A DNA stretch of 54,064 nt, filler included, from Bilabrum cf. latius (Eukaryota), in the NCBI GenBank assembly GCA_965178125.1. It is 2 parts of 2 records of this genome, joined end to end, with 100 filler letters (N's around TTAATTAATTAA, not from the genome) between each part and the next. Parts side by side here need not be neighbours in the genome. Positions count along the whole stretch, not along the records: positions 27,169 to 54,064 come from CBCXTV010000030.1; 1 more part is not named here. One strand, given 5' to 3'. Made by a program: the position numbers and the translations under genes. Of the stretch, positions 27,866 through 44,745 are shown in pieces (the first letter of the stretch is position 1; every line of letters begins with the position of its first letter). The notes beneath the pieces are model-generated. The model ran no database searches. It was not told the origin of the DNA and was given only the letters and a program-made list of their open reading frames with translations.

Positions 27866-28049
27866 CACCTTTTCTTTCCAAGGCCCAAGCCATGTTTTGT
27901 ATATAGAGGCGCTGGAGACCTGGGTATGAATCCAAGAAGAAAAAATGCTCGGTCCTTCCCGCGTTCAGATTCACATTTCTGGACAAAACACCGGCAGCTC
28001 ACGAGGGCGCACGGCGGAAAAAAAGACCACTGAATGGATACACTCCGCC

Positions 28050-28750
28050 CGTGGCGACCCGCCCGCGCGCCCGCCCGCTCGCCCGTCCGCCCGTCTGCCC
28101 GCCCGCCCGCCCGTACGACCGCTCGCCCGCTCGCCCTTTCGTCCGCCCACCCGCGTGCACCCGCCCGCCCTTTCACCCAATTGCCCGCACGCCTGCCCGC
28201 CCACTCGACCGTGCGTCCGCCCAGAGGCCCGCCCACCGGCCCGCCCGGGCGCCCACCCGCCAGCCCGCTCGCCGGCCCTCAGGCCCGTTGGCCGGTTTGC
28301 CCGCTCGCGCCTCCGTCCGCCCGTGGCCCGCCCGCTCGCGAACCCGCTGGCTAGCCCGCGCGCCCGCCCGCCTACACCAATCCACTCGCGCACGCTCGCT
28401 CCCGCCCACCCGGCCGCCCGTCCGCCCGCCCGTCCGACAGCCAGCCGACCCGTCCGCCCGCGAGCCTGCCTGCCCACGCGTGCGCGCGCTCGCCTGCTTG
28501 CGCACACCCGCGCGCGCTCACGCGCGTACGCGTGGCGACCCGCGGGCTCGCCGGCCCAACAGCTCCACCGGATAGCCGCTCGGCTTTCTGCCCGCTCCCC
28601 CGCCCGCCCGATCGCCCGCGCACCCACCCGATCGCTCGCCCGACCAGTCGCCCGCCCGCCCGCCTGCCCGCCCGCCCGCCCGTCCTCCGCCCGCCTGCCC
28701 GCGAACAGGCCCGCCCGCGCGCCCGCACGCCGGGCCGCCCACCCGCCCGG
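28050..28750. repeat. Degenerate (CCCG)n low-complexity tract
   Basis: Direct reading. Similar tracts at about 32220-32345 and 39810-40165, and in unit 2. Confidence 0.9.
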
Positions 28751-28891
28751 AAATGTCAGACATTCCCTGTCATAAGGAAACTGTTGCGCGGTGAGATGCA
28801 TCCTCAGAAAAACTCCACGCTCGTATGAAAACGCCAAGAAAAATGCTCGAGGAAAGTACCCAGATCACTCAAACGAATGACTGCAATGTTC

Positions 28892-29542
28892 CTAAAAGCC
28901 ATGCCGTGTCCCCGCTACAAGTACGCATGCCGATATTACCTCCGCCATCGCTGCTGCAACACTCGACGACCGAAGTGGTGGCGGCGTGCGCTCGCGCGAC
29001 GAGGAGGCCGCGCTCGAGCTCGCTGACAACGACGAGATCGGAGTCAACGCCCGCGCCCACATGCGGGCAACTCGCATCCCGACGTCAGCAACGTCTGCGG
29101 CATTCATAGATGACCGCAAACTCTCGAGCATGCGACCCCCTCGAGTCGCCCCCAGCGCTTCGGACAACGTTGTCCAAGCCACCGCGACACATGCGCGATG
29201 CTCCGTGGGCAACGTGTCCCATGCAAGACGCGCCGCAAACACCGCAATCACGAACTTCATCGCACCAGTGACAGATTCGATGTTGTACGCGAGGCACAAC
29301 ATCTTCTCATCATACACCAAATACGTGCCGCAATCACGGAGTTCCCAAAGCGCCTCATACCGAATTCCATGCAAGGAGCGCCTGAGTTGTGACCCCTCTC
29401 CACGACGCGCGCCGGGGCGCGAGAGTCGATGGCTGTGTCCCTCACAACTGCAGTGCGCCCCACAGTAAGGTCCGCCGACAGCCAGACAGCGGACCGCAGC
29501 GACGTTCGAGCATCCCTCAATCGCGCACGACCGAGAAGCCAT
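28892..29542 (-). CDS. Hypothetical protein with an N-terminal Cys/His cluster
   Basis: 216-aa ATG ORF; CAIEGC...C...CGAHCSCEGH; co-oriented with the element B genes. Confidence 0.6.
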   Translation of the reverse strand: MASRSCAIEGCSNVAAVRCLAVGGPYCGAHCSCEGHSHRLSRPGARRGEGSQLRRSLHGIRYEALWELRDCGTYLVYDEKMLCLAYNIESVTGAMKFVIAVFAARLAWDTLPTEHRACVAVAWTTLSEALGATRGGRMLESLRSSMNAADVADVGMRVARMWARALTPISSLSASSSAASSSRERTPPPLRSSSVAAAMAEVISACVLVAGTRHGF

Positions 29543-30575
29543 GATACGCTCGCGGGTTTATTGCGCGCGGATCGTTTCGGGACGCTCTGACACTCGCTGA
29601 AAAAAATCATGCGAAACACATATAACTCACGCTCGGTTCTAGGCCGGAAGACCGCCCGTCCGCTCGCCCGACTGCTCGCCTCTCCGAAGGTCCACCGTGC
29701 CGCCTGCTCATTAGCGTCCCCGCGTGAACGCCCGTTCCTCATAGGGAAGTGACCTGCAACATCACTCTCGCACTTGCTGCGAAAACACCATGCCTGTACC
29801 AATCAATGCTACCGCTGTGACGAGCATGACCAAGATTGGAAGAAGATCAGAGCTGCAAGTTTCCATCACCATGTGCACCTCCGCAAAAAAAAAGACGTGA
29901 TGAAAGCACAACTTGTTTCCACCGGCAGCTCTCCTTGGGCGCACGGCGAGACATGAAAAAGAAAACAATGATCAGTCCGTTGCTCGAACATTCACATACC
30001 AATGCAGGAAGGCATTGTTAATGACATTCTCCATCGCGCTTTGCGCTTTCTTCTCACATGCGCCACAGATGCAGACACACTTGCCCGTCCGACTCCCTGA
30101 TGGCACAAGCATGTGATCGGCTACGAAAGGTGACGGAAAAAAACAGCCAATGCAGTGTCGTGCACGGAACTCATGCAAATCCGAATGGACTGCTTCCGAG
30201 AAATGAGACTAGCCACATTGGTGGATCGATCAAAAAAATGATAACACTTTCACACACACACACACACGGTATGGTCGCGGCCGGTCAATTCTTTTCGTGT
30301 GACAATCACCAAGACCAAATTCTGACAGAGCGAGTAAACATATGAAATTGCCTTCTGCACAGACATGTTGTCCGACAAGCCGTGCGTAAGCATCATCAGA
30401 CTCCGGCAACGGATCTTTCCATCCGAACCGCAATGACAACGGATGCTCAAGGTTTGTTGCGGGACACAAGCACGCACTATACATTGAAAAAACAAGCTAT
30501 ACAAAACAAAGTTCGCGTTGCCCGGCACTGTCTGTTTCATGCCGGTCGTCACGAACACAAAGGCGTCATGGCGTT

Positions 30576-31025
30576 TTACGGCCATTTGACACCGACTTCG
30601 CGAGCACGACGTCGGAGTTCGACGCCCTGGGTCGGCGTACATCCGAGCCACCGAATGCGCCGATTGAATTCTTGCCACTCGGCGTGGCCGATGGGCACCA
30701 GATCAGGGTGCTTATGGAAAACAATCCATGGCAACCCTTTCTCCGTCCCGAAGGCAGGGCTCTCACACGGCAACCGCGGCGGTACGCCGGCTTTGCGAAA
30801 CTCAGCGTCTGTCCACCACTGATATTTCACGCCCTCGTCCCTCGAGTCGTGGAGCGACTGCACCCATCTCCTGTACTGCGCTTCACACGAGCGCATATAT
30901 GAGCGCACCCATGCGGACGGGTCGCTCACCTTTTCGCCAGCAGCGCTTGAGGACGCCGGCATGTCCACCACCTCTTCCGCTTCATCAGCCGGAGAAATGG
31001 GCGAAGCACTTCCATACCACGCCAT
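30576..31025 (-). CDS. Hypothetical Trp-rich protein (149 aa)
   Basis: ATG at 31025 within ORF 30576-31073; protein-like composition; downstream of the motif copy at 31242. Confidence 0.45.
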   Translation of the reverse strand: MAWYGSASPISPADEAEEVVDMPASSSAAGEKVSDPSAWVRSYMRSCEAQYRRWVQSLHDSRDEGVKYQWWTDAEFRKAGVPPRLPCESPAFGTEKGLPWIVFHKHPDLVPIGHAEWQEFNRRIRWLGCTPTQGVELRRRAREVGVKWP

Positions 31026-31241
31026 ACCCACGGATGAAGAGGAAACTCGGGATGGGGCGACAAAAAGACGCAATCAAACGACGTCTGAATGCGAGCACCA
31101 ACATTTCGGAGAGGAATGAATGATCACTTGGAAAAGATGCATGCGAGAAAACAATGCCATGATACGCTCATGCTGTTCCACGCAGACATGGGACAATGAC
31201 ATGGCCAATCTCCGTATTGTCCTGAAAATCGCATATCAAGG

Positions 31242-33470
31242 ACCGGCAGCTTACCATGGGCGCACGCAAAAGAGAAGAAACTATGAGATAAAAATATTTT
31301 TCCCGCCCTCGCTTCCGCAACAATGTAATACACAGACCACACGTCTACACAAATGCCCGCACCCTACAGGACACACCAGGACCGCAAAACCGCACGCCAG
31401 CACGGCGGGTGCTAGACAACAATTTGGCGCGCTCTCCTGTGACGGACTTGTGCCACAGGGCACCGACACGGATAACGCAGACTGCCTCAGACGCCCCTCG
31501 TTTACCATGACGAGGCACAGACCCACAGGGAGGACCGCAAAACGCGTCCACCTGGCGGACGCGAAATTGGGCCCAGAATACGGCCACCATTTCGCGGCCG
31601 GAAAACGGCACCAAAACCGGGGGCAAAAATGGGGGACCCGACTGTTGGGTCCCCCTTTTTTCCTCTATTTTTTGTGGCCGTTTTCCGGCCGCCGAAATAG
31701 GCCCGCGGCGCGGACCGCCGAGATGCACACCTCCGGGGGGGCCACTGTACACAGTTCCCCGGCCACACGCGCCCTGCTGGAGAATAACACACGGCGCCCG
31801 CGGACAAACTGTACTACACGGGTGCGGAAAAAAACACCGACCAACCGAACGCACAGGCACGTTCTACGTGTAGGCTGCGCCACACCTTTGCCGACCCAAA
31901 ACAGTGTGCTGCATTTGGACACATGCGGTACAGAAATTCCCAGAGATTCTCACGAAGTTCATCGAATCTTTGTCCACTTGCACCCCATTTGCCAGAAGTG
32001 TCGCGATTTATAAACCAAGTCCGGTCCAATTTCGGCAATCATAGCTCATTGTCCACGACCGTGATTCCCGCGAAAAATGAGCAACATGTGTCGGCGATGA
32101 AGACAACTTCTCCGCGATTTCGGTCCATTCAAGGCAATGTTGGCAGGCTTTCCCTTAGCGGTCCATACCAAAACAAATCGCTAGTCTCACTCGCGATCTG
32201 CTCTCTCACGCCTGCACACCCGCGGGCCCACCCGCCCGCCCGCTGGCCTCTCCGCCCGTCCGGACGCCCGCTAGCCCGCCCGCCTGCCCACCGGTCGGCC
32301 CGCGCGCCCGTCCGACCGCTCACCCGCCCGCCCGTCCTCCCGACCGTCAAGAGTAAAAGAACATCTATATTCGAAAACGCGTCCAGAAGCAGGGTTGTCT
32401 AGGGAAACGGGGGATTTTTCAAGTCGTGCGACTTGCAACAAAATTCTGGCATGAAAACGCCATTTTCTATCAGCCTACGGAACGGTGGATGCGGCAGTTT
32501 ACCTTACCTTACACAGACACGGTCATGGATGCGCCAGTTGGGTTTTCCACAAGAGGACCAGGTCCGGACCCCTTCTTCACATCGTATTTTCAAAACAAAG
32601 AACCCAATCCACGAGGAGGCAGGCGACGGAGGGCGGGCGGGGGTCGGGCCAGCCAGCCATGTGCGTACGCAGGTGGAACGCGACGTCTTGCAAGACGTCG
32701 TGCATGGTGAGATGCGGTTTGACGATGACGTCGTCGACCGCGTCCTGGTGCCTTTCGATACAGGTTCCTTAACTTCAAAATCTGAGCGGAGGAGAAGCTA
32801 CCTTTCGCGTACGACGAGGGCGTCCACACAGACGCGGCCGTGGCGGGCCTTCCCGCTTACCTCTCGCCGAGTCACATTGGCGGGCTGTGTGGCACACCTG
32901 TTGCCGAGTCGGACGGGACCGCGCCAAAAGAGCCTGCCGTTTTAAAACGGGCCCGGTAGACGGGACAGGGTCCGAAAAGCCAACTGACGCAATCATGACC
33001 TCGCCGTTTAGCCGCCCGACAAGAATGCACGACTCGGAATGATCTGGGAAGTTTGAAATGGGTCCGGACACATCATGGGAGAGTGAGATGGCCAGACGTC
33101 ACGGTGTCATGAAAACCCACAATCGGTGACCGGCAGCTCACCATGGGCGCACGGAAAACAACGACGTTTGAAAGAAACAATTTTTCCCGCCGTCGCTTCC
33201 GAAACAAGATGATACACAGACCGCACGCCTACACAAATGCCCGCACCCTGCAGGACACAGCATGACATTAAAACCGCATGCCCGCACGGCGGCCGCCAGG
33301 CAACAATTTGGCGCGCTCTCCTGTGACGGACTTCGACCGCAGAGAACCGACACGGATAACGCAGACTGCCTACGACGCCCCTCGTTTACCATGACGAGGC
33401 AGAGACCCACAGGGAGGACCGCAAAACGCGTCCGCGTTTCGGACACGAAATTCGGCCCAGAATACGGCCC
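31242..33470. repeat. Diverged ~340-bp internal direct repeat (about 31242-31585 and 33129-33470)
   Basis: Both copies begin with the ACCGGCAGCT motif and share CAACAATTTGGCGCGCTCTCCTGTGACGGACTT and ...GGCCCAGAATACGGCC. Confidence 0.85.
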
Positions 33471-33613
33471 CCATGTGACGTCCGGAATATATAAAGACGA
33501 CAGTCCCTTCTACAATATCTGCAGGACACGCACCTCCGACGCACAGCAATCGCGTTTGCATTTTCCTGCCAAGAGACACGCTTTGGAAATACAGATTCAA
33601 TCACAAGAGAAAA

Positions 33614-35560
33614 TTACAGCGCGGTACGCGGGACCCACAGCGCTTCACCGGCATAGTAATACCGGCTGTTGTCCTGGATCCACTTTCTCTCCGACGCTAG
33701 CAAAAGATTTAAACCCGCGTTCCAATCGTTGCAACAAACAACAATCTTCGCGCGGTGAACCCACTGGCGATAACTGTACATATTCGTCGCCGTGTGGGAC
33801 AAGGACACCCACTCCGCAGGCGCCTGAAAGAGACGTTTGTTCTGGATGACTAAAGATGCCGAAGCCTCATCCATCACAATCACCTCATCATGCAGCGGTC
33901 GAAAAGACCGAAGATCGGGCTGCGTTGCTTGTTGGCAATCACAGAAAAAGACATGGCCGGTATCGGCCAATGAGCATGCATACTGCGTCTTTCCGACGCA
34001 GGAGGGGCCGTCCAAAATTAAAAAGCGATAGCGGGATGCCAGACGGTTGAACTCCGCTAACCACTCGGAGACAACGTCTATCTCTCGAAAGGGGCACATC
34101 CCTCCACGCAACTCTGCTTGGACAGCCTGTACGTGCGCTGCCAAACTCGCCTCGGATGTGGCCGATTCATAAGCGGCCAGGGTCCGGAGCATGTTTGGAA
34201 GATTCCGCACTACACGCACAGACAACCGACGCGCAGTGCCAACGGCAATCTTGCCGGACTGGAGTAGCTGTATAATCCAATCGGCTTGAACGAGATAGTC
34301 ATGAAACATCTCGACACTCCCACCGCCGTCTACGCGACCAAACTTCGGCGCCTGCACGTAAAAAAACCCTTGAAAACCGCGTGCAGCACCACGCACACGT
34401 TCGGCGACGCACAAAGACACAACAGGCGGGGATATTCCTTGAAACATAATCCCCGTGAAGTACTCTAACACCGCCGAAGACGCACGCAATGCAACGTGAA
34501 AATGAACACGGGCTTGCGAATTGGGAGCACGAATGGTCGTCGGCGACACTTCCGCGCACCACACATACTGTACAACACGCCAGTGCTCCACAAAGGGCAT
34601 GAACCACGCAAGAAAGGCAACACGCAAAGCCATAAACCACGCCGATAACGACACAGACATCGCAACCGTGTCGACGTCCACTTCCGCGTTGCCTGGTTGA
34701 AAAATCAACGAAGGCACAAGCCCCCATGGCCCATTCAACGAAAACAGACGAGTGGCCGGACGGCTCGCAGAAGCACCGCCTTGGACGCCTTGGGAGCCAG
34801 ACCTGTGCCCGCGGATGAGGCACGCGCCAACCTGCTGCGCACACTCCGGAAGATCACACTGGCTATCCAGAAAACGGCGCAGCAGCGCGCGCTGCTCATC
34901 CCGCAGGGCACTGCCGGCCTCGCGGCGTAAACCGTGGGTCGCCCACACAGTCTTCTCCGCCGCCGTCCCACTCGACGCCACCCATCGCGACAGGCGTCGC
35001 CACAACCTCGTGTACGCAGCGTGATCCAGAGAAGTGCTCAGGGACTCATCTGCGACAGACCCGAGGGCAATGTCGCGTCGGCGCGCGCCGTCGGCACTGC
35101 CTGCGGCTTGGGAGGCAGACGGGGATGGGTACACAAACGGAGCGGCGGAGCTCGCCTGAGACACAGGCAACACCGGCTCAGGCACGGCCACGCGCGCTGA
35201 CGCCACCGCAGGGGATCGCTTCGAAGAAAAGCGACGGCGCTTAGTCGGATGCTCCGAAGCTTGCCCGGACGAAGACAACATCGCACTGCAAAGCGTCACA
35301 ATCCGTTCGGCGCTCGGACATCTCCGACTGAAAACACTGCAAACTAGGCGACGATGATTCGGAGCATAAAACCGACTGCTCGCACACGAAGTCTGCAAGG
35401 AACAACATGTTGAATGTGGACATGCTGACGACAGAAAAAAAAGCACTGACAACGGGAGCTCAAAAAAATCTTGCGCTGTGAAACAAAACAAACATACCGT
35501 ATGCACCCCTTCATATCCATCAGACACACAACAAGCAGAACATGCCGAAAAAGGAGACAC
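33614..35560 (-). CDS. rep: CRESS/geminivirus-like Rep (HUH + SF3 helicase); likely ATG at 35281
   Basis: Motif I region LFSLNGPWG, motif II VHFHV, motif III FYVQAPK, Walker A GPSCVGKT, Walker B IVMDEA, motif C VVCCN. Collinear with 15013-17298. Confidence 0.9.
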   Translation of the reverse strand: MSPFSACSACCVSDGYEGVHTVCLFCFTAQDFFELPLSVLFFLSSACPHSTCCSLQTSCASSRFYAPNHRRLVCSVFSRRCPSAERIVTLCSAMLSSSGQASEHPTKRRRFSSKRSPAVASARVAVPEPVLPVSQASSAAPFVYPSPSASQAAGSADGARRRDIALGSVADESLSTSLDHAAYTRLWRRLSRWVASSGTAAEKTVWATHGLRREAGSALRDEQRALLRRFLDSQCDLPECAQQVGACLIRGHRSGSQGVQGGASASRPATRLFSLNGPWGLVPSLIFQPGNAEVDVDTVAMSVSLSAWFMALRVAFLAWFMPFVEHWRVVQYVWCAEVSPTTIRAPNSQARVHFHVALRASSAVLEYFTGIMFQGISPPVVSLCVAERVRGAARGFQGFFYVQAPKFGRVDGGGSVEMFHDYLVQADWIIQLLQSGKIAVGTARRLSVRVVRNLPNMLRTLAAYESATSEASLAAHVQAVQAELRGGMCPFREIDVVSEWLAEFNRLASRYRFLILDGPSCVGKTQYACSLADTGHVFFCDCQQATQPDLRSFRPLHDEVIVMDEASASLVIQNKRLFQAPAEWVSLSHTATNMYSYRQWVHRAKIVVCCNDWNAGLNLLLASERKWIQDNSRYYYAGEALWVPRTAL

Positions 35561-36172
35561 CGGCAGCTCTCAACGGGCGCACGGCGAAATCCATGAAGAA
35601 ATCACATTCCTGTTCCTACATAATGCATCCCGCACATGCCACCGTTCGAAAAACGTCGCGTCCAGAATTCCCTCAAGTGCCTTCCGCTTCTCCTCGAAGC
35701 GCACACTCAAACGGCCTCACAGGGATTTTCTGCATGCCCATACCCTCAACTGACGCCGTCGCCACGGCACAAGCACGAGAACGAAACGGCACGTCTCCCA
35801 ACATAGAACAAAAGATTCCGGCTCAAAAGCCCTCCAGAACTCCACATCCCCTTCAAACATTATCTCGGACACTTCCCTGCACATGGCATACTTCCCCTTC
35901 GGTCCCTTCCTTCATATAACCACATCTCCATTTCAGCATCATTTCCTCCCCGGCAAGATGGCAGAATAGTCCAAACAACCTCACGATATCCTCAAGAGCA
36001 CGGCAGCATGAACATCCAAAACACGGGGACCCCTCAAAGATGGTATCGACGTCAGTTGTTTTCGGTCGTTCTTTTTCTGATTCGCTCTTCTCGCAGAAGT
36101 CTCTTTGGAGGCATTTTTCTCCAAGTGGCCTCCTTTGGGCCTTCTCTTTTGGGGAGGTCCTTTTTTCCCTAA

Positions 36173-36330
36173 AAAAAGGGGGGGGGAAGCGGAAGCGCTG
36201 GGAAAGGCTTTTAAATATTAAAAGCGCTTTCCAGCGCTTCCGCGCTACCCCCCCCCCTTTTTGTACTCATTTTACAGTAGTTTTTCACGATTTAGGGGGG
36301 TAGCGCTAGGGGGTTTTCCACGCTACCCCC
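36173..36330. promoter_or_regulatory. Long imperfect hairpin: candidate rolling-circle origin or element end junction
   Basis: Arms 36173-36214 and 36218-36262 around ATA; the minus-strand apex reads TAATATTTA. CGCTACCCCC at 36243 and 36321, with its inverse GGGGGTAGCG at 36296. Confidence 0.65.
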
Positions 36331-36966
36331 TGTTTTGGCCTCGATTTTGGCAATTGTTCCACCCACTTTGGTCCAATTTCCCCATTTTTCTAGGATTTTT
36401 GCTATTTTTCTCGATTGTTCGGGCATTTTGTGTGGAAATTTCCACATTTTCACCGAATCTGGACCGATTTTCCTGTTTTTTTGGGGAGTTTCGCGATTTC
36501 CTTCCATTCCCGCCTCACACTCTTCCCCCTCTTCTTATGCATTTTCGCGATTTATTCGCCAAATCTGGTCCCATCTCGGTGGTCATGGCCGGTTCTGTGC
36601 GATTTTCAGGGATTCTCATCGATTAAGGCTATTTGTTCGCGATGTCGGTCGGTTCTGGACGATCTTTCCGATTCTGGTTGATCTTCGCTGTCTTTCTCTC
36701 TCCTCTCCGTGGTCCAAGGACGCATCACTCTTCGCCGATTTCGCTTCTTATGTCGTTGAGGTGCGTCTGCTGGGCTCCTTTGGCTAGCCGGTGGTCTCCA
36801 TGCAATAGCGCGTCTCTTCCGCCGCAGTTTCTTTCGCCTGAGAGTCATCCATGTCATCATGCGCAATGAAACACAATACACAATCCATGGCATGCTTCCC
36901 ACTCAGCTGTCAAACCACCACACTTCCATGAAGTATGTGGCAATATGATGCTCGCGTGGCGCGCCT

Positions 36967-37401
36967 TCACGCCTCCTTGGCCGATGAGTTCTTTTTCGGC
37001 TTTTTTGGGGCGGCGGATGACGACGCCGCGTCGCCAGCCTTTTCGCTGCCGGCGTCCGGGCGACTTGCCTCCCGCATCAGCATGACCTCGGCGAGGTCGT
37101 CGTTGCTGAGACGACGTGCGTTGGCCTTCAAACGGCGACGTCGCTTTTCGTGGTTGCGGAGGTCTTTTGCCACCCGCTTTCGCTCGGCTGTCATTGCCGC
37201 CTGTTTCGCGCGCAACTCGTCGATTTTCGCCGAGAGCGGCTTCGACGGCACGCCTCCGGCAGGTGTCGTTGCCGCAGCGACTGCGTCGTCTAGCTGCCTT
37301 TCTTCTGTTACGGCCTTCGCGTCGCCGGCCAGAGCCGGCGCGCTCTCGGCAGCGACGATGGTGCGCTCGTTGTCGCTTTCGGCCTCGCTGCGGTCCGACA
37401 T
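36967..37401 (-). CDS. Small basic coiled-coil protein (144 aa), homologue of 13366-13836
   Basis: IDELRAKQAAMTAERKRVAKDLRNHEKRRRRLKANARRLSNDDLAEVMLMR; same position upstream of the hairpin and Rep as in element A. Confidence 0.75.
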   Translation of the reverse strand: MSDRSEAESDNERTIVAAESAPALAGDAKAVTEERQLDDAVAAATTPAGGVPSKPLSAKIDELRAKQAAMTAERKRVAKDLRNHEKRRRRLKANARRLSNDDLAEVMLMREASRPDAGSEKAGDAASSSAAPKKPKKNSSAKEA

Positions 37402-39292
37402 GCCGGCACTTCCGAGCGAAAGGCGCTCGCGTCGCCCGCGGCCCCGTGTGGGGCGGCGATTTCTGGCGCTGCGGCTTCAGGGCGCGCTAGAGCTGCAAAA
37501 GCTGCAGGTGGGGCACTTTCGCCTTCCGCGCGAACGGGCAAATGGAACCACCACCCGAGCGGTAACCGCGCGCGTGCTGTGGTACAAAGTTGGAGCTCTT
37601 CCAGCGATGGAAGCTCGTGTCCTACCGTCGGGGGTGCTTCCAGTCCGGTGCGAGCTTTGCATCGGGTGCCGAGGTGCTCCTGACCTTGTCCGAAGCCACA
37701 AGAGAGAAACGCGAATTTCCAGCACCGCGCCTGCAAAACTTGCTGCGTGGCCTTGGTCCACATGCGAACGATATCTCTGTTCGGAATTGGCCCCACTGGT
37801 TGTTTCAGGTACAACTCTTCGAGGCCATTTCGCGCAGCGCGCTTCAAATGGTGAAAGACGTGCACATCGAGCGGTTGCAGGAAGGACGTCGTGCACGGTG
37901 GCACGAACACAATTCTGATTGCGCTCTCCGCGGCTGCGCGTGCGACGCTCTCTGTCCAATGCGTCGGGCAAGCATCGAGTGCGAGAATGAATTCGTGCGA
38001 CGCCTTCCATGGCTGCAACGCGCGGCCTGCAAGTCGCACAATGCGACCGAGCTCTGGGCCTTTCAACCACGCGGTTTTCCGCCGCTCTACAGTCACGCCT
38101 GAATTCCGCGTTTCTTCGCGGATCCACGTCGTATCTGCCGCGGATATGGTGTGCGAATTCACCAAGAGAATTTGTGGCAATGCTTTCTGTATCTCCGCAT
38201 TGTCTGCAAGGAAAGCGAGAAGAGAGAAAGCCGTGCGCTTGCTCTTGAGGGAGGCCACCTGTCGCGGGACACGCCCGCGCCTCACTTCGAGGTGTGTTCG
38301 GGCACTCAGTAAACCTGGCTTCGGCGGTGTCCACAGGCGGCACGAACTCTCGTCGAAATTGAGGAAGACGGTCGTTTTGTTGTGCGGCACGGTGTGCTCC
38401 AAAAAATTCGCCCACTTCCACATGGCCGTTGCCTCGTGTTTGCCGGGAACGCGGTGGTCTGTGGGACGATTTGGCGGGCCCGATTCTGCGGCCGGAATCC
38501 GGCCACCCCCCATGTGGTGGAATGAATGCGTGGGCCCCAAATCGTGGCCATTTTCTGGCCGCCAAACTGGGCCCGCAAAAGTGGCCCGGGGGGCGATTTT
38601 TTGGGAGCCGCCGGTGGGGCAAATGTGGGGCTCTTTCCTGCCGGAACCTTCCGTGCCGCCTCCTCCGTCGTCGTGCCCGTCCCGGAGGGGAGCGTGCCGC
38701 GGCGTAGCGCCCATCGACGCATAAAGCCACGCATCCATTTTTTCCTTCGCGGGGGGAGCGCTGCATGCAATGGGACGTCGTGAGCGGCAGTGGCCACACT
38801 TTCGCATGCCGAAGCGCGCGTACGTTGTGTGTAGACGGTCCGAGTACTCGGCGCGAGACCGCGTCCCCGGTTCTGCTCATCGATCCATTGCACCAGATCT
38901 TTTTCGCGCAGATACTTCTCGGCGTCGCTTTGTCGTCGATTCCACCATCCCGTCGTGGCCTCGTTGTTCATGTTTGTTGCGGTACTTCTCTCTCGCACCA
39001 CGTTCATGAACTTCGCCGCGTTGACGGGCACGCCCAATTTCCGCCCGAGGGATGCTTCCAGGAAGGTTTGTGCTGCCTTCCCGCTGTCTGGGACACGCAT
39101 GTAAATCACGATCGCGGTGTCTCGATATCGAGGTGTGCAGTTCTTGTCGGTCACCTCAACATCGCTCGCCGTGTCTGCGGTACGCTCGGCATCGCGTCGC
39201 TCTTCCGCCCGGATTTCGCTCCGCATTTTGCGTAAAGCATCCGTGAGGTCATTGCGGCGCGCACGTGCGTCGGTGATGGCGGACCTTTTCAT
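37308..39292 (-). CDS. pogo-family DD35D transposase, two exons (39292-38648 and 38432-37308; 589 aa), intron 38433-38647
   Basis: Exon 1 has WIDEQN..GLAP and WMRGFMRRW. Exon 2 has NFDES, LDACPTH and LQPLD (35-residue spacing). Removing AAG|GT...AG|GCA restores gap-free alignment to the element-A transposase. Confidence 0.85.
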
Positions 39293-40478
39293 CGTTCGGG
39301 CCTCAGCTTTTCAGAGGCGGCTCGCGAAAAGGGCTGCAGACAAGATGCCGCTGTCGGGGGGCTTTCGTGCCGGGTTACAGGTCCCTGTAGGGAAGTGTGC
39401 ACTGGCGGATGCGCTTGCAGTGCGTGGTTCTCGTGTTGCGGGGTGCGCTAACCACAGTTCGTCATTTGCGTCGTCGTCATCAAGTTTCGCTGCATGCTCG
39501 GCGGGGTTTTGGTACAGCCCTTTTTTCACGGATCTCGTATGTTGAGTCCTGCTCTCCTGTGGCCCTTTTTCCAACGTGCCCCAGATCATTTCCGGAATAA
39601 GCGTTTGGCCTAGGTAATCGCGGCATCATAGAACTTGGGATTCCCTTTCCCCGCGATTGCGGACTCAGCCATGGTGAACTTCCGCCCTCTACCTTGGGCT
39701 TTTCCTGCTTCGACTTCTTCGTGGAATGTGCCTGGGGTCGCCATCATACAACCAAAAATCCACGAGAACAAGGAACGACTCCGTTCTGCAAAAGAGTCTG
39801 CGTCCGCTGGTTCCCGCCCACCCGCTCGTCCGCAAGTCCACCCGCCCGCCCGCCCGCCGGCCCTCCTGCCCGCCCGCCCGTTCTCCCGTTCGCCCTTGGT
39901 CTACCCGCACATTAGCTCGTCCGCCCGCCCGCCCCCCCGCTCGCCCGCCCGCCCACCTGCCCGCCCGCCCTCCCGCCCACCCGCGTGTCATTCCGTCCAT
40001 CAGCTCGCGCGCCCGCCCGCCCGCCTGCAAGCCCGTCCGCCCGCCCGCGCACCGGCCCGTCCGCCCCGCCGTCCGCCCGCCCGCCCGCCCGCTAGCCCGC
40101 CCGCCCGTCCACCCGCTGGCCCGTCCGCCCGTCCGCCCGCCCGCTCGGCTCCCCGCTCACCTGCCCAGTCGCATGCCAATTCTTACTGTGATGAATTCCA
40201 TCATGAGAAAATTGAGCAACTCACACATGCAAACGCGACACCGGCAGCTCACGTGGGCGCACGGCGATGTGTCTCTAGATGGAAGCGTGGGCATGAGCTC
40301 GTGCTAGTGAAGCGTCACGCGCTTTCACCATTTCCTGCATGTCGTCATCATAACATTGACCAAGTGAGACATGCCAAGGGTACACCGGCAGCTCACGTGG
40401 GCGCACGGCGATGTGGATTTTCCATGCACGCGATCACAGTCCATCGCATTCCATCGCAGCAGAGGACACGTATCCTTC

Positions 40479-41585
40479 TTAGACAACCACGTCCGCTGCC
40501 TGCCTACTCGCATGCAAAAGGTATTCCCAGCTTGCGTCTGGGTGTACTTCCAGCGAATGCTGGAATGCCGGTTCCGCGTACAGAGACACACCCGCGTCTG
40601 CGGGATGCAAGTACAGCGTTGACACGTGCACAATGTGCACCCAGACATGCGTGGGAAAAGTGCTATCGGGGTAGGAGATCCACTGGTGGCGGTCCCCTCC
40701 GCCTGATCGGCGCAGGACGGTTTTCCGCTTTTGCGGATCATCGTGTGGACTGCGGACCTCTAAAAAAGGACCATACAACCACCCCGAGTCGTCGAGGGCA
40801 CTGTACAATATATACGACGACAAAAGATGCGCACGTTGAGGCGCGAATGTATAAATTCCCTGCAACTCCCGCCCGGCCTCAAAATTCCGAGCCCACCCGG
40901 TCGCGAGACCGCCAAAAACAATGCGGTGAAGTACTTCCAGCGCTGTACCATGGAAGCTCGTTCGGAACCGGGTCTCGTCGAAATCCGTGGCGATCCTGTC
41001 TGCCGCGGGCAAATCGAATCGCACATAGAAACCGAGGGGAGAAAAAGAACCCTCCGGGCGGTCTATGGCACCGCGAAGAATGCCATTCACCAACCGCGGT
41101 CGGGTCGCGATCCATTCCCACAAGGTATGGACCGCTGTAAACGGTCGGGCGTCGCGTCGCCCTATCGAACCGCCTGCGGCGACCCAACGAGTGAAGCTTC
41201 GGGTCCGACCAGCATCCAGAGCGATGACTGGATTAGTTCCGCGCCACCGCCGGATGTGCGGGGCCGGCGCGTTCTCCACGCCGTCCCACATGAAACGGCC
41301 CATACCGCCTCGCCAAGCCAGGGGCCCGGCTGGCCTCTGGGCCGTGGGCGGCCACGGCGGAACGTCGCCAGGCATGCCCTTAAAACGCCGTGCGTATGAC
41401 GGCAATTCATCGACCATGAGATAGGCGCCTAGGGTCGTGCCGCTCTCAGTCGTCACCCGGCTTGCCGTTGCGGCGGGCATTTCCGGCGCGTTCGCTATCT
41501 CCGCCTCGGAGACCAGCTCTGCCGGAATGTCCGCCCTCGCGACCGCCTCCGTGATCGACGCCTGGTCGACGCTGCTTGTCGCCAT
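40479..41585 (-). CDS. PARP-like ADP-ribosyltransferase domain protein (368 aa)
   Basis: SFHGT...RIVFGGL...QGIYTF...SSY matches the PARP-type HGT...GxGIY...Y pattern. The ORF spans the arbitrary unit 1/unit 2 boundary intact. Confidence 0.65.
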   Translation of the reverse strand: MATSSVDQASITEAVARADIPAELVSEAEIANAPEMPAATASRVTTESGTTLGAYLMVDELPSYARRFKGMPGDVPPWPPTAQRPAGPLAWRGGMGRFMWDGVENAPAPHIRRWRGTNPVIALDAGRTRSFTRWVAAGGSIGRRDARPFTAVHTLWEWIATRPRLVNGILRGAIDRPEGSFSPLGFYVRFDLPAADRIATDFDETRFRTSFHGTALEVLHRIVFGGLATGWARNFEAGRELQGIYTFAPQRAHLLSSYILYSALDDSGWLYGPFLEVRSPHDDPQKRKTVLRRSGGGDRHQWISYPDSTFPTHVWVHIVHVSTLYLHPADAGVSLYAEPAFQHSLEVHPDASWEYLLHASRQAADVVV

Positions 41586-42611
41586 CACCTTTTCTTTCCA
41601 AGGCCCAAGCCATGTTTTGTATATAGAGGCGCTGGAGACCTGGGTATGAATCCAAGAAGAAAAAATGCTCGGTCCTTCCCGCGTTCAGATTCACATTTCT
41701 GGACAAAACACCGGCAGCTCACGAGGGCGCACGGCGGAAAAAAAGACCACTGAATGGATACACTCCGCCCGTGGCGACCCGCCCGCGCGCCCGCCCGCTC
41801 GCCCGTCCGCCCGTCTGCCCGCCCGCCCGCCCGTACGACCGCTCGCCCGCTCGCCCTTTCGTCCGCCCACCCGCGTGCACCCGCCCGCCCTTTCACCCAA
41901 TTGCCCGCACGCCTGCCCGCCCACTCGACCGTGCGTCCGCCCAGAGGCCCGCCCACCGGCCCGCCCGGGCGCCCACCCGCCAGCCCGCTCGCCGGCCCTC
42001 AGGCCCGTTGGCCGGTTTGCCCGCTCGCGCCTCCGTCCGCCCGTGGCCCGCCCGCTCGCGAACCCGCTGGCTAGCCCGCGCGCCCGCCCGCCTACACCAA
42101 TCCACTCGCGCACGCTCGCTCCCGCCCACCCGGCCGCCCGTCCGCCCGCCCGTCCGACAGCCAGCCGACCCGTCCGCCCGCGAGCCTGCCTGCCCACGCG
42201 TGCGCGCGCTCGCCTGCTTGCGCACACCCGCGCGCGCTCACGCGCGTACGCGTGGCGACCCGCGGGCTCGCCGGCCCAACAGCTCCACCGGATAGCCGCT
42301 CGGCTTTCTGCCCGCTCCCCCGCCCGCCCGATCGCCCGCGCACCCACCCGATCGCTCGCCCGACCAGTCGCCCGCCCGCCCGCCTGCCCGCCCGCCCGCC
42401 CGTCCTCCGCCCGCCTGCCCGCGAACAGGCCCGCCCGCGCGCCCGCACGCCGGGCCGCCCACCCGCCCGGAAATGTCAGACATTCCCTGTCATAAGGAAA
42501 CTGTTGCGCGGTGAGATGCATCCTCAGAAAAACTCCACGCTCGTATGAAAACGCCAAGAAAAATGCTCGAGGAAAGTACCCAGATCACTCAAACGAATGA
42601 CTGCAATGTTC

Positions 42612-43262
42612 CTAAAAGCCATGCCGTGTCCCCGCTACAAGTACGCATGCCGATATTACCTCCGCCATCGCTGCTGCAACACTCGACGACCGAAGTGGTG
42701 GCGGCGTGCGCTCGCGCGACGAGGAGGCCGCGCTCGAGCTCGCTGACAACGACGAGATCGGAGTCAACGCCCGCGCCCACATGCGGGCAACTCGCATCCC
42801 GACGTCAGCAACGTCTGCGGCATTCATAGATGACCGCAAACTCTCGAGCATGCGACCCCCTCGAGTCGCCCCCAGCGCTTCGGACAACGTTGTCCAAGCC
42901 ACCGCGACACATGCGCGATGCTCCGTGGGCAACGTGTCCCATGCAAGACGCGCCGCAAACACCGCAATCACGAACTTCATCGCACCAGTGACAGATTCGA
43001 TGTTGTACGCGAGGCACAACATCTTCTCATCATACACCAAATACGTGCCGCAATCACGGAGTTCCCAAAGCGCCTCATACCGAATTCCATGCAAGGAGCG
43101 CCTGAGTTGTGACCCCTCTCCACGACGCGCGCCGGGGCGCGAGAGTCGATGGCTGTGTCCCTCACAACTGCAGTGCGCCCCACAGTAAGGTCCGCCGACA
43201 GCCAGACAGCGGACCGCAGCGACGTTCGAGCATCCCTCAATCGCGCACGACCGAGAAGCCAT
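42612..43262 (-). CDS. Hypothetical Cys/His-cluster protein (copy 2)
   Basis: Identical to 28892-29542. Confidence 0.6.
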   Translation of the reverse strand: MASRSCAIEGCSNVAAVRCLAVGGPYCGAHCSCEGHSHRLSRPGARRGEGSQLRRSLHGIRYEALWELRDCGTYLVYDEKMLCLAYNIESVTGAMKFVIAVFAARLAWDTLPTEHRACVAVAWTTLSEALGATRGGRMLESLRSSMNAADVADVGMRVARMWARALTPISSLSASSSAASSSRERTPPPLRSSSVAAAMAEVISACVLVAGTRHGF

Positions 43263-44295
43263 GATACGCTCGCGGGTTTATTGCGCGCGGATCGTTTCGG
43301 GACGCTCTGACACTCGCTGAAAAAAATCATGCGAAACACATATAACTCACGCTCGGTTCTAGGCCGGAAGACCGCCCGTCCGCTCGCCCGACTGCTCGCC
43401 TCTCCGAAGGTCCACCGTGCCGCCTGCTCATTAGCGTCCCCGCGTGAACGCCCGTTCCTCATAGGGAAGTGACCTGCAACATCACTCTCGCACTTGCTGC
43501 GAAAACACCATGCCTGTACCAATCAATGCTACCGCTGTGACGAGCATGACCAAGATTGGAAGAAGATCAGAGCTGCAAGTTTCCATCACCATGTGCACCT
43601 CCGCAAAAAAAAAGACGTGATGAAAGCACAACTTGTTTCCACCGGCAGCTCTCCTTGGGCGCACGGCGAGACATGAAAAAGAAAACAATGATCAGTCCGT
43701 TGCTCGAACATTCACATACCAATGCAGGAAGGCATTGTTAATGACATTCTCCATCGCGCTTTGCGCTTTCTTCTCACATGCGCCACAGATGCAGACACAC
43801 TTGCCCGTCCGACTCCCTGATGGCACAAGCATGTGATCGGCTACGAAAGGTGACGGAAAAAAACAGCCAATGCAGTGTCGTGCACGGAACTCATGCAAAT
43901 CCGAATGGACTGCTTCCGAGAAATGAGACTAGCCACATTGGTGGATCGATCAAAAAAATGATAACACTTTCACACACACACACACACGGTATGGTCGCGG
44001 CCGGTCAATTCTTTTCGTGTGACAATCACCAAGACCAAATTCTGACAGAGCGAGTAAACATATGAAATTGCCTTCTGCACAGACATGTTGTCCGACAAGC
44101 CGTGCGTAAGCATCATCAGACTCCGGCAACGGATCTTTCCATCCGAACCGCAATGACAACGGATGCTCAAGGTTTGTTGCGGGACACAAGCACGCACTAT
44201 ACATTGAAAAAACAAGCTATACAAAACAAAGTTCGCGTTGCCCGGCACTGTCTGTTTCATGCCGGTCGTCACGAACACAAAGGCGTCATGGCGTT

Positions 44296-44745
44296 TTACG
44301 GCCATTTGACACCGACTTCGCGAGCACGACGTCGGAGTTCGACGCCCTGGGTCGGCGTACATCCGAGCCACCGAATGCGCCGATTGAATTCTTGCCACTC
44401 GGCGTGGCCGATGGGCACCAGATCAGGGTGCTTATGGAAAACAATCCATGGCAACCCTTTCTCCGTCCCGAAGGCAGGGCTCTCACACGGCAACCGCGGC
44501 GGTACGCCGGCTTTGCGAAACTCAGCGTCTGTCCACCACTGATATTTCACGCCCTCGTCCCTCGAGTCGTGGAGCGACTGCACCCATCTCCTGTACTGCG
44601 CTTCACACGAGCGCATATATGAGCGCACCCATGCGGACGGGTCGCTCACCTTTTCGCCAGCAGCGCTTGAGGACGCCGGCATGTCCACCACCTCTTCCGC
44701 TTCATCAGCCGGAGAAATGGGCGAAGCACTTCCATACCACGCCAT
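44296..44745 (-). CDS. Hypothetical Trp-rich protein (copy 2)
   Basis: Identical to 30576-31025. Confidence 0.45.
   Translation of the reverse strand: MAWYGSASPISPADEAEEVVDMPASSSAAGEKVSDPSAWVRSYMRSCEAQYRRWVQSLHDSRDEGVKYQWWTDAEFRKAGVPPRLPCESPAFGTEKGLPWIVFHKHPDLVPIGHAEWQEFNRRIRWLGCTPTQGVELRRRAREVGVKWP

What the first reader, a model, noticed from the sequence alone, without database searches (positions are those of the whole stretch)
36173..36330. Large stem-loop with geminivirus-like TAATATT apex and GGTAG repeats upstream of Rep
Seen: ~45-bp imperfect arms closing on GCTTTTAA-ATA-TTAAAAGC inside an AT-rich island. The minus strand reads TAATATTTA, and the GGGGGTAGCG/CGCTACCCCC motif occurs three times. 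Known: geminivirus origins are hairpins bearing TAATATT/AC, and the TGMV Rep-binding iteron core is GGTAG. Inference: this is the Rep nick site. Alternatively it is the joined left and right TIRs of tandem elements around a TA, the pogo target. It could serve both enzymes.
Basis: partly seen in the sequence, partly recalled or inferred. Interest (0 to 1): 0.82.

Follow-up and report, generated by a model that had tools for sequence, protein, structure and literature searches.

The report
Origin hairpin of a Rep-transposase element
A long DNA hairpin tipped with TAATATT lies upstream of a virus-like replication gene in a 13.7-kb head-to-tail repeated element, and is most likely where that protein nicks the DNA to start copying, because distant relatives keep the same layout.

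Summary
Positions 36171-36261 form a 91-nt imperfect palindrome (44-nt arms, apex ATA; DNA fold z about -8 to -9). The only TAATATT of each repeat unit sits at its tip. A 10-nt word occurs three times beside it. The window is two contigs joined by a spacer; the second contig is 1.96 head-to-tail copies of a 13,720-bp unit.

The ORF downstream (33614-35560, minus strand) has no Pfam hit. It does keep invariant HUH, Tyr, Walker A/B and motif C residues. Its model (pLDDT 91) matches full-length AAV Rep68 and CRESS-virus Reps.

The decisive evidence is comparative. Four of five distant relatives (Rep 28-35% identical) with at least 450 nt upstream of Rep carry a strong stem-loop there. The stems are unrelated in sequence, but the tips are AT-rich, and three share TTTAATAT with the window.

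I read the hairpin as the Rep origin and nick site (confidence 0.68). The link to the geminivirus GGTAG iteron is not supported. The joined-TIR alternative is disfavoured.

A pogo-like DDE_1 gene is linked to Rep in three lineages. A second conserved palindrome (31594-31692) remains unexplained. The host is unresolved and probably eukaryotic.

The parts
36171..36261 (.). Large imperfect hairpin/palindrome (44-nt arms, 3-nt apex ATA): candidate Rep origin
   Evidence: the core 36187-36246 is invariant in 57 of 60 columns among three diverged copies, against 60-72% in the flanks
36207..36224 (.). AT-rich apex CTTTTAAATATTAAAAGC; the - strand (Rep sense) reads TTTAATATT, the + strand AAATATTAA; predicted nick region
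   Evidence: TTTAATAT occurs only here and in the tandem copy; 0.09 expected
36186..36198 (+). GAAGCG-GAAGCGC direct words in the left arm (iteron-like)
36234..36252 (+).
36296..36330 (.). Second small hairpin made of motif copies 2 and 3 (GGGGGTAGCG ... CGCTACCCCC)
   Evidence: (I16); three paired positions change on both sides in contig C25 of the other assembly
33614..35560 (-). Rep gene (648-aa frame; likely start at ATG 35281). Motif I 34730-34744, HUH 34493-34504, Tyr motif 34343-34366, Walker A 33986-34009, Walker B 33863-33877, motif C 33725-33736
37308..38807 (-). pogo-like DDE_1 transposase ORF, conserved partner of Rep
   Evidence: PF03184, E 1.1e-07, 32 bits against cut-off 22
38306..39292 (-). 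Upstream ORF in another frame, overlapping the DDE ORF; the wording of its sequence suggests a helix-turn-helix (my reading, no family hit)
31594..31692 (.). Second large palindrome (49-nt arms, apex GAC-T-GTTGG), 1.9 kb downstream of the Rep stop; conserved in relatives; role unknown
27169..40888 (.). One 13,720-bp unit of the head-to-tail repeat (circular or tandem)
40889..54064 (.). Second, incomplete copy of the unit (99.99% identical), holding the second hairpin copy at 49891-49981
27069..27168 (.). Artificial spacer (N runs around TTAATTAATTAA) joining two separate contigs

Best explanation
The hairpin is the cis-acting origin of the element, served by the Rep gene downstream of it.

Proposed mechanism:
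1. Rep (HUH nuclease + SF3 helicase) binds the repeated GAAGCGC / GCGCT(A/T)C words in and beside the stem.
2. The AT-rich 15-18-bp tip melts or extrudes.
3. The catalytic Tyr401 cuts one strand inside the TAATATT / AATATTA word. By analogy with CRESS-DNA viruses the cut would fall after the seventh base.
4. The 3'-OH primes rolling-circle synthesis around the 13.72-kb unit.
5. At the next copy of the hairpin, Rep cuts and rejoins to release a unit-length circle.

The head-to-tail 1.96-mer in the window is what a circular episome, a rolling-circle concatemer or an integrated tandem would assemble into.

Shown: the hairpin, its conservation, its tip word, its place upstream of Rep in several distant lineages, and the catalytic motifs and overall fold of Rep.

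Inferred: binding, melting, the cut, the strand that is cut, and rolling-circle replication.
For: (1) Hairpin stability. z is -7.7 to -9.0, with 0 of 200 shuffles as good.

(2) Conserved island. Among the window and two copies that are 88% and 81% identical over this intergenic region, 57 of 60 columns of the core are invariant, against 60-72% in neighbouring segments.

(3) Rep is a Rep.
- Invariant in 40 family members: E337, H353, H355, Y401, K406, G518, K524, D564, E565, N611.
- Model pLDDT 91.3, with the two His on a strand and the Tyr on a helix.
- Foldseek best PDB match is full-length AAV2 Rep68 (E 1.1e-08, 475 columns), then vientovirus Rep, papillomavirus E1 and, lower in the list, PCV2 Rep.
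- BFVD best matches are CRESS-virus Reps and parvovirus NS1 (E 1e-11 to 1e-8, about 400-450 columns).
- ESM Atlas neighbours at 0.96-0.97 are Cressdnaviricota Rep clusters.

(4) Relatives. Of 8 distant loci with at least 250 nt upstream of the Rep frame, 4 have a strong stem-loop with an AT-rich tip 0.3-0.9 kb upstream. That is 4 of 5 loci with at least 450 nt upstream.
- L006: 71-nt perfect arms, loop holding GTTTAATATTAAAC, z -20.6.
- L017: z -6.1, loop holding TTTAATATTAAT; it is the strongest fold in a 10.5-kb locus.
- L013: z -4.9, loop holding TTTAATATAATTTAA.
- L016: z -6.35, loop holding AAATTATTAAT.
The stems share no sequence between lineages, while the tip word is kept.

(5) Rarity of the tip word. 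TTTAATAT occurs in the window only at the tip (0.09 expected). In the family loci it occurs only at these tips, plus one extra site shared by L006/L014/L026.

(6) Lineage-specific repeats. By my reading of the sequences (not counted by a tool), each lineage repeats its own short word in and beside the stem: window GAAGCGC; L006 GTTGACCC; L017 and L013 GCGTCC/GGACGC; L016 GGCAC.

(7) Head-to-tail continuity. The join 40888->27169 is bridged by contigs in 4 of 4 runs from 4 studies. Two assemblies break the unit at different, non-hairpin places.
Against: - The tip is only a 3-nt loop in the minimum-energy fold, so the TAATATT word is base-paired. In canonical CRESS origins it is exposed in a 9-13-nt loop (recalled).
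- The word is followed by TA, not AC.
- In contig C25 of the other assembly an A-to-T change at the tip removes TAATATT from the Rep-sense strand, leaving AAATATT on both strands.
- The three flanking repeats differ between the window and C25 (TACCCC against TTCGGC) although the Reps are 580/583 identical. They therefore cannot be specificity determinants matched to Rep, unless Rep reads only the shared AGCGC core.
- One paired position in the stem changes on both sides to a mismatch (G-C to A/G).
- No such hairpin was seen in L011 (1,282 nt upstream available), nor in L012 and L015 (about 250 nt each).
- A second palindrome with a conserved tip exists in the unit and in 6 of 7 relatives that reach far enough. 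It could be the true nick site.
- Rep has no sequence-level link to any Rep family: no Pfam family reaches E 0.01, members give only weak P-loop matches, and there is no PDB match by sequence.
VIA-align rows cover mainly the ATPase domain.
- Nothing here shows a nick. Only contigs were available, and table 6 lists no start or end places.
Confidence: 0.68

Rival explanations
1. The conserved second palindrome (31594-31692, tip AC-T-GT) is the Rep nick site. On this view the reader's hairpin has another role: a Rep-binding or promoter element, or the origin for complementary-strand synthesis, like the single-strand origins of rolling-circle plasmids.
For:
- A palindrome with the tip word ACTGT lies 0.85-2.5 kb downstream of Rep in 6 of 7 distant loci that extend at least 1.7 kb beyond Rep: L007, L011, L014, L017, L018, L019, but not L016.
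- L007 and L014 are only 77% identical around it, yet keep it almost unchanged.
- In L017 both hairpins share the arm word GCGTCC/GGACGC.
Against: - Its tip has no likeness to any HUH nick motif that I can cite from a tool result.
- Both sites may be needed, one per strand.
Confidence: 0.13
2. The palindrome is the joint of the left and right terminal inverted repeats of a DDE (pogo-like) transposon. The repeats abut around a TA in an excised circle or tandem array, and the DDE_1 transposase acts on them.
For: - A DDE_1 gene lies 1.1 kb from the hairpin.
- It is linked to Rep in three lineages with similar divergence: DDE 24-31% identical, Rep 27-28%.
- In C25 the tip is a perfect palindrome centred on TA.
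- No separated pair of terminal inverted repeats was found in the unit. The only long inverted repeats are the two palindromes.
Against: - In L006, L017, L013 and L016 the arms are separated by 25-43 nt of loop that is not palindromic, not by a target dinucleotide.
- The arms in the window are only 77% complementary and unequal in length.
- None of the 24 loose ends listed (433 more were not shown) lies at 36216. The nearest are 36100 and 37013, in one run.
- The arm ends do not begin with the CAGT-type termini that I recall for Tc1/pogo elements (recalled, not tested).
Confidence: 0.07
3. The hairpin is a transcriptional element with no part in replication. It could be a terminator for the DDE-side transcript, or a cruciform or promoter element between the two gene blocks.
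For: - G/C-rich arms are followed by T runs on both strands.
- The hairpin lies between the 3' end of the DDE-side genes and the 5' end of Rep.
- AT skew flips sign at about 36000-36200.
Against: - The terminator scan does not flag the hairpin, and finds 5 small sites against 3.5 +/- 1.9 expected.
- A terminator does not explain a tip word kept across lineages whose stems are unrelated.
- No sigma-70-like promoter was found, although the host is probably not bacterial.
Confidence: 0.07

Closest known systems
Origins of CRESS-DNA viruses (Geminiviridae, Circoviridae, Nanoviridae and relatives): a stem-loop with a conserved nonanucleotide, plus iterons, served by an HUH + SF3 Rep
   Same: - Stem-loop next to the 5' side of rep.
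- AT-rich tip word TAATATT / AATATTA, kept across lineages while the stems turn over.
- Short repeated words beside the stem.
- A Rep with motifs I-III, one Tyr, and an SF3 helicase.
   Different: - Stems are 17-71 bp rather than about 10 bp (recalled).
- The loop is only 3 nt in the window.
- The last two bases of the nonanucleotide differ.
- The unit is 13.7 kb (11.4 kb in contig A), and no capsid gene was recognised.
- Rep is about 600 aa, with a 250-aa N-terminal extension and about 75 residues between motifs I and II.
- No Pfam Viral_Rep or Gemini_AL1 hit at E 0.01 or better.
- A DDE_1 transposase gene is linked to Rep.
Parvovirus / AAV terminal hairpins (Rep-binding repeats in the stem, nick site nearby)
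   Same: - A long imperfect palindrome with short direct repeats inside the stem.
- The best solved-structure match of the whole Rep model is AAV2 Rep68.
   Different: - Here the palindrome is internal to a head-to-tail unit, not a terminus of a linear genome.
- Neighbouring units are direct, not inverted.
- AAV Rep68 is among the few full-length two-domain Rep structures solved (recalled), so its top rank is not specific.
Double-strand and single-strand origins of rolling-circle plasmids (pMV158/pE194 type)
   Same: - A hairpin harbouring the nick site, with direct repeats bound by Rep (as described in passages of PMC10288648).
- A second large palindrome could act as a single-strand origin.
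   Different: - Those Reps lack the SF3 helicase.
- The hosts are bacteria.
- There was no match to this Rep in 72,556 plasmid records.
Eukaryotic HUH transposons: Helitrons and Replitrons
   Same: An HUH nuclease on a multi-copy element of (probably) eukaryotic genomes; hairpins at or near the functional sites.
   Different: - The Helitron protein has two Tyr and an SF1B (Pif1) helicase. Replitron transposases have no helicase (PMC10288648: abstract and passages read).
- This protein has one invariant Tyr and an SF3 helicase.
Tc1/mariner-pogo DNA transposons
   Same: A DDE_1 transposase gene in the unit.
   Different: - No terminal inverted repeats or TA duplications were found.
- The unit also carries a Rep and an origin-like hairpin.

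Membership tests
CRESS-type rolling-circle origin | Stem-loop adjacent to the rep gene | tested here: met
   Hairpin 36171-36261, 0.66-0.94 kb upstream of Rep. The same holds in 4 of 8 distant loci with upstream sequence.
CRESS-type rolling-circle origin | Conserved nonanucleotide (TAATATT/AC type) exposed in the loop | tested here: inconclusive
   - TAATATT is present once per unit at the tip.
- It is followed by TA, lies in a 3-nt-loop fold, and is lost on one strand in C25.
- L006 and L017 carry TAATATTAA in 25-28-nt loops.
CRESS-type rolling-circle origin | Iterons bound by Rep near the stem | tested here: inconclusive
   - Repeated words are present and change in concert between copies.
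- The Reps are 580/583 identical although the words differ.
- Binding cannot be tested here.
CRESS-type rolling-circle origin | Rep with HUH motifs I-III (one Tyr) fused to an SF3 helicase | tested here: met
   - Invariant residues in 40 members.
- Two-domain Foldseek matches to AAV Rep68 and CRESS Reps.
- The nuclease domain was not confirmed on its own.
CRESS-type rolling-circle origin | Site-specific nicking and joining by Rep | not testable with these tools
   Only contigs of public runs were available; no start or end places were listed.
Cressdnaviricota virus genome | Small circular genome (about 2-6 kb, recalled) with a capsid gene | tested here: not met
   - The unit is 13,720 bp.
- Of 9 ORFs scanned, only one has a Pfam hit (DDE_1). 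Capsid genes are often unrecognisable.
- No relative was found in IMG/VR with two profiles.
Geminiviridae origin | Exact TAATATTAC and a Rep of the Gemini_AL1 family with GGTAG-type iterons | tested here: not met
   - The tip reads TAATATTTA / AAATATTAA.
- No Pfam family, Gemini_AL1 included, reaches E 0.01.
- GGTAG is replaced in sister copies.
Tc1/mariner-pogo transposon ends | Element termini at the palindrome centre with TA target duplication | tested here: inconclusive
   - No copy with an end at 36216 was seen among what one search listed; many rows were not shown.
- Loops of 25-43 nt in relatives speak against abutted ends.
Tc1/mariner-pogo transposon ends | DDE_1 transposase | tested here: met
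   PF03184 above its cut-off in the unit, in contig A and in L017.
Parvovirus-type terminal hairpin | Palindrome at the end of a linear genome; neighbouring units inverted in replicative forms | tested here: not met
   Units are head-to-tail and the palindrome is internal, with unlike flanks.
Helitron / Replitron | Two-Tyr Rep with an SF1B helicase (Helitron), or Rep without a helicase (Replitron) | tested here: not met
   One invariant Tyr, plus Walker A/B and motif C of SF3 type, and fold matches to SF3 helicases. Definitions taken from PMC10288648.

The most novel reading that the evidence does not exclude
The hairpin is the origin of a so far undescribed class of 11-14-kb elements, probably of protists. 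These elements would combine a CRESS-like HUH + SF3 Rep and its TAATATT-tipped origin with a co-inherited pogo-like DDE transposase.

On this reading the element is an episome or tandem array that multiplies by rolling circle from the hairpin and moves into and out of chromosomes with the DDE enzyme. The second conserved palindrome would be the partner site, either a complementary-strand origin or a transposase site.

The Rep family behind it is large (2,173 cluster representatives at E <= 0.001). Its members carry no source names in the clusters I looked up, and the 40 members scanned give only weak P-loop matches in Pfam.
Probability: 0.3. Interest if true: 0.85.

Novelty: new variant of a known kind. 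Interest (0 to 1): 0.6.

Why it matters
- It pins down the likely cis-acting origin of a large, unnamed family of replication proteins that current family libraries miss. That gives a concrete, cheap biochemical test: does Rep cut the tip oligonucleotide?
- The long stems and the linkage of a virus-type Rep and origin to a cut-and-paste transposase gene in three lineages suggest a bridge between CRESS-like replicons and DNA transposons. Four paper searches did not turn up a description of this.
- Practically, the element sits in assemblies labelled as bacterial, yet it was found in only 1 of 401 genomes of that bacterial family (G001 itself). It is therefore a marker of foreign DNA in such bins.
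- New HUH nuclease and target pairs are also of interest as DNA-protein coupling tools (PMC7826260, seen only in a search listing).

Tried and rejected
- Whole genome of the window: not held.
- Earlier findings of this scan: nothing by place, sequence or words.
- Sequence-level naming of Rep:
  - Pfam gave 0 families at E 0.01.
  - PDB by sequence gave 0.
  - A profile against PDB gave only weak Lon/AAA matches, best E 0.037.
  - In Pfam on 40 members, the 25 most-matched families are mostly P-loop ATPases; RNA_helicase matched 3 of 40, best E 0.13.
- Rep in other collections: no match in plasmids or phages; no relative in IMG/VR with profiles A1 and A5.
- Rfam on the whole window: 0 families.
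The 6-member profile was used instead.
- First hairpin scan with loops up to 12 nt and a high score cut-off: it missed the relatives' stem-loops and found only L019. Wider loops were needed.
- Circular signatures in the relatives' contigs: none in 15 loci.
- Run search: no RNA holder was listed.
- Laid contigs: no places where molecules begin or end. Contigs of two runs stop at 36221, inside the palindrome; I take this as an assembly break at an inverted repeat, not as an end.
- VIA-align wide search and second look: both are filled by AAA+ ATPase domains (Z 10-11.5) and say almost nothing about the nuclease domain.
- Contig A's 10-bp stem module as a homologous origin: the fold is not better than chance (z -1.6 and -2.8), so it is kept only as a lead.
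- Bacterial terminator or promoter reading: the scan was not significant.
- MAFFT alignment of the tips: it put the window group out of register, so the shared word was read directly and counted.
Full report
WHAT THE WINDOW IS. The window is not one molecule. Positions 27069-27168 are an artificial spacer (N runs around TTAATTAATTAA) that joins two contigs. The second contig (27169-54064) is 1.96 head-to-tail copies of a 13,720-bp unit: 27169-40344 equals 40889-54064 at 99.992% over 13,176 bases. The finding therefore occurs twice, at 36171-36261 and 49891-49981. No whole genome is held for the window. The nearest genome, G001, shares the element itself. Its contig C25 (13,455 bp) is almost one unit, broken at another place: window 35664-40888 then 27169-35365, at 97.1% and 99.8% identity. 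Its contig C3 (7,792 bp) is a 90-91% identical partial copy.

The arms 36171-36214 and 36218-36261 are 44 nt long and 77% complementary, with ATA between them. As single-stranded DNA the region folds far better than shuffles: z -7.7 on the + strand, -8.5 on the - strand, and -9.0 for the hairpin alone, with 0 of 200 shuffles as good in each. TAATATT is read on the - strand at 36214-36220 and nowhere else in the window except in the tandem copy. The 10-nt word CGCTACCCCC / GGGGGTAGCG is present three times: 36243, 36296 (inverted) and 36321. The last two copies form a small second hairpin. Local GC is 0.47-0.53, against about 0.6 around it.

THE GENE DOWNSTREAM IS A REP, THOUGH NO LIBRARY NAMES IT.
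- The 648-aa frame 33614-35560 (- strand) has no Pfam hit and no PDB match by sequence.
- A word-indexed search found 5 relatives. An exhaustive profile search found 2,173 cluster representatives at E <= 0.001, of which 672 are at <= 1e-30. In the 10 clusters I looked up, the only names are 'hypothetical protein', and all members come from metagenome or run assemblies.
- In 40 aligned members the invariant residues are E337, H353, H355 (the HUH motif), Y401 and K406 (Tyr motif), G518 and K524 (Walker A), D564 and E565 (Walker B) and N611 (motif C). A nearly invariant T274/G277 word lies where motif I is expected.
- An AlphaFold2 model of residues 240-648 has mean pLDDT 91.3. The two His lie on a strand and the Tyr on a helix.
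- Foldseek's best solved match is full-length AAV2 Rep68 (E 1.1e-08, 475 alignment columns), followed by vientovirus Rep, papillomavirus E1 and, lower in the list, PCV2 Rep.
- In the viral library the best matches are CRESS-DNA virus Reps and parvovirus NS1 over about 400-450 columns.
- Language-model neighbours at 0.96-0.97 are Cressdnaviricota Rep clusters.
The nuclease fold therefore rests on the two-domain Foldseek alignments and the motifs.

COMPARATIVE EVIDENCE FOR THE HAIRPIN. Within the close copies the hairpin core is a conserved island. 57 of 60 columns are invariant among the window, C25 and C3, against 60-72% in the segments beside it, in an intergenic region that is only 88% and 81% identical overall.

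Fifteen distant loci with Rep 26-39% identical were fetched. Eight of them have at least 250 nt upstream of the Rep frame. Four of these carry a strong stem-loop with an AT-rich tip 0.3-0.9 kb upstream of Rep:
- L006: 71-nt perfect arms, 25-nt loop holding GTTTAATATTAAAC, z -20.6.
- L017: z -6.1, 28-nt loop holding TTTAATATTAAT; it is the strongest fold in 10.5 kb.
- L013: z -4.9, loop holding TTTAATATAATTTAA.
- L016: 17-bp stem, z -6.35, loop holding AAATTATTAAT.

The other four do not show it. L014 is 98.8% identical to L006 and its contig starts just after the hairpin. L011 has 1,282 nt upstream and no such structure. L012 and L015 have only about 250 nt. Among loci with at least 450 nt upstream, the count is 4 of 5.

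The stems have no sequence in common between lineages, but the tip word is kept. In Rep sense, TTTAATAT is shared by the window, C3, L006, L017 and L013. In the window it occurs only at the tip (0.09 expected). In the family loci it occurs only at these tips, plus one extra site shared by L006/L014/L026. A structure that is kept while its stem sequence turns over, with a conserved loop word next to rep, is the signature of a CRESS-type origin (established knowledge, recalled).

THE REPEATED WORDS. In C25 all three sites read CGCTTCGGCC / GGCCGAAGCG. In C3 the inverted copy is an intermediate (GGGGGAAGCG). In the small hairpin, three paired positions change on both sides between the window and C25. 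C3 breaks two of those pairs (my reading). The Rep of C25 is 580/583 identical to the window's over residues 66-648. The variable part of the word therefore cannot be a determinant matched to Rep. What is invariant is the AGCGC core and the GAAGCGC / GCGCTTC words inside the stem. GAAGCGC is mildly enriched in the window: 28 matches against 17.4 +/- 3.75 expected. By my reading of the sequences, each distant lineage likewise repeats its own short word in and next to its stem. I take these as candidate Rep-binding sites. This is inference.

THE TRANSPOSASE AND THE TIR ALTERNATIVE.
- The ORF 37308-38807 (- strand) is a DDE_1 (pogo-type) protein. It is not a chance passenger.
- Contig A of the same window (1-27068) is a second, distant member of the family. 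It has Rep at 15013-17298 (27% identical) and DDE_1 at 22684-24321 (28% identical).
- Metagenome locus L017 has DDE_1 (339-1520, PF03184 at 27.2 bits), then the hairpin, then Rep, then the second palindrome. This is the same order as in the window read on its - strand.
- Rep and DDE are the only genes shared between contig A and the unit, and they have diverged to similar degrees.

Even so, the hairpin does not look like abutted transposon ends. In four relatives the arms are separated by 25-43 nt of asymmetric loop. The window's arms are unequal. None of the loose ends listed lies at the centre. Two assemblies break the unit elsewhere.

A SECOND PALINDROME. Positions 31594-31692 form a palindrome with 49-nt arms and tip GAC-T-GTTGG (z -7.3), 1.9 kb downstream of Rep. 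A palindrome tipped with ACTGT lies 0.85-2.5 kb downstream of Rep in 6 of 7 distant loci that reach far enough: L007, L011, L014, L017, L018 and L019, but not L016. It is the main rival for the nick site. It could instead be the partner site, for example a complementary-strand origin. I could not decide its role.

CONTEXT AND HOST.
- Contigs bridge the 40888->27169 join in 4 of 4 runs from 4 studies. Each run holds many diverged copies; one run has 1,908 laid contigs, mostly 90-95% alike.
- The element was found in 1 of 401 genomes of G001's bacterial family, namely G001 itself, apart from one weak P-loop-only match.
- It was not found in plasmid, phage or IMG/VR collections.
- A neighbouring ORF (40479-41588, - strand) has a weak PARP-like lead with eukaryotic neighbours.
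- Together with the pogo-type transposase and a basic RRRLR-K word conserved in the Rep N-terminus, this points to a eukaryotic, probably protist, host and to mis-binning. The host is not shown.

MECHANISM PROPOSED. Rep binds the stem words. The AT-rich tip opens. Tyr401 cuts in the TAATATT / AATATTA word. Rolling-circle synthesis runs round the unit, and re-cutting at the next hairpin copy releases unit circles.

The strand that is cut is open. The tip is nearly palindromic. ATATT is kept on the strand opposite to Rep in 6 of 7 copies, and on the Rep-sense strand in 5 of 7 (my reading). This is a weak hint for the opposite strand.

NOVELTY. The kind of feature (a Rep origin hairpin) is known. 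The variant is new in four respects:
- Very long stems.
- A minimal loop in this lineage.
- A Rep family that Pfam does not recognise beyond weak P-loop matches.
- A linked DDE transposase on 11-14-kb units.

Four literature searches and reading of the Replitron paper (PMC10288648: abstract, outline and passages) found no description of such elements. Replitrons lack the helicase, and Helitrons use a different one. PMC9651163 was checked by passages only and is not relevant. Supplements were not consulted.

LIMITS. There is no evidence of nicking, binding or single-stranded forms. The comparative set is small (five lineages). The nuclease domain was not confirmed on its own. The host is unresolved.

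Noticed in passing
window 27069-27168: The window is two contigs joined by an artificial spacer (N runs around TTAATTAATTAA). Features must not be read across it.
   Followed up: yes
window 31594-31692; L007 3156-3192; L014 4835-4871; L017 8605-8629; L018 3649-3673; L019 1864-1968; L011 4971-4995: A second large palindrome lies downstream of Rep. Its tip word AC-T-GT is conserved across distant lineages (6 of 7 loci that reach far enough). The arms in the window and in L019 show spaced A/T tracts. Its role is unknown: a rival nick site, a complementary-strand origin, or a transposase site.
   Followed up: partly
window 1-27068 (contig A): Rep 15013-17298 (+), DDE_1 22684-24321 (+), modules 14198-14330 and 25597-25733: Contig A is a second, distant member of the same element family (Rep 27% and DDE 28% identical to the unit's). 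A 135-nt module with a 10-bp stem (GTAGTGCGAT/ATCGCACTAC) is repeated in direct orientation 11.4 kb apart, bracketing Rep and DDE; the word GCACTAC follows the first copy twice more. Homology between the two copies stops at the end of the right arm. The fold is not better than chance (z -1.6 and -2.8), so this is only a lead that the hairpins mark unit boundaries.
   Followed up: partly
window 35664-36900 against G001 C25: The intergenic region around the hairpin is a divergence hot spot: 88% identity here, against 99.8% over 27169-35365 in the same pair of copies. This suggests recombination or fast evolution of the control region, with the hairpin core spared.
   Followed up: partly
window 38306-39292 and 37308-38807 (- strand): Two overlapping ORFs in different frames make up the transposase region. 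The frame switch falls near 38506-38549 and is kept in the 90% identical copy C3. This suggests an intron or a programmed or inherited frameshift. Typical homologues of the DDE part are about 370 aa.
   Followed up: partly
window 40479-41588 (- strand, spans the unit junction): A 369-aa ORF with 4 metagenomic homologues and a weak language-model lead to PARP-type ADP-ribosyltransferase catalytic domains of eukaryotes (0.92, few shared features). It has no Pfam hit.
   Followed up: no
window 27945-28840, 32200-32350, 39800-40170: GC-rich CCCGCC-type simple repeats give long spurious Ala/Arg/Pro ORFs on both strands. In run X7 their summed contig depth reaches 1,756 to 6,491, against about 50-300 in most other bins. 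They therefore belong to a much more abundant repeat class.
   Followed up: no
window 31187-31603 and 33074-33487: A 420-bp internal direct repeat (83% identical). Its first copy ends inside the left arm of the second palindrome; its second copy ends about 130 bp beyond the Rep stop.
   Followed up: no
window 36262-36800: A T-rich stretch (AT skew to -0.54) right of the hairpin, with several repeated words: TTCACCGAATCTGGACCGAT-like three times at about 100-nt spacing, and TTTTCGCGATTTA twice. AT skew flips sign at the hairpin. Unexplained.
   Followed up: no
window 36967-37401 (- strand): A 144-aa ORF between the DDE gene and the hairpin, with a basic, coiled-coil-like stretch. It has no Pfam hit. 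It may be a small DNA-binding protein of the element.
   Followed up: no
L006 1-165: The contig starts exactly at the base of a perfect 71-bp stem, and its near-identical twin L014 starts just after the hairpin. This is expected if assemblers break at a long inverted repeat, but a true hairpin end of a linear form is not excluded for that lineage.
   Followed up: no
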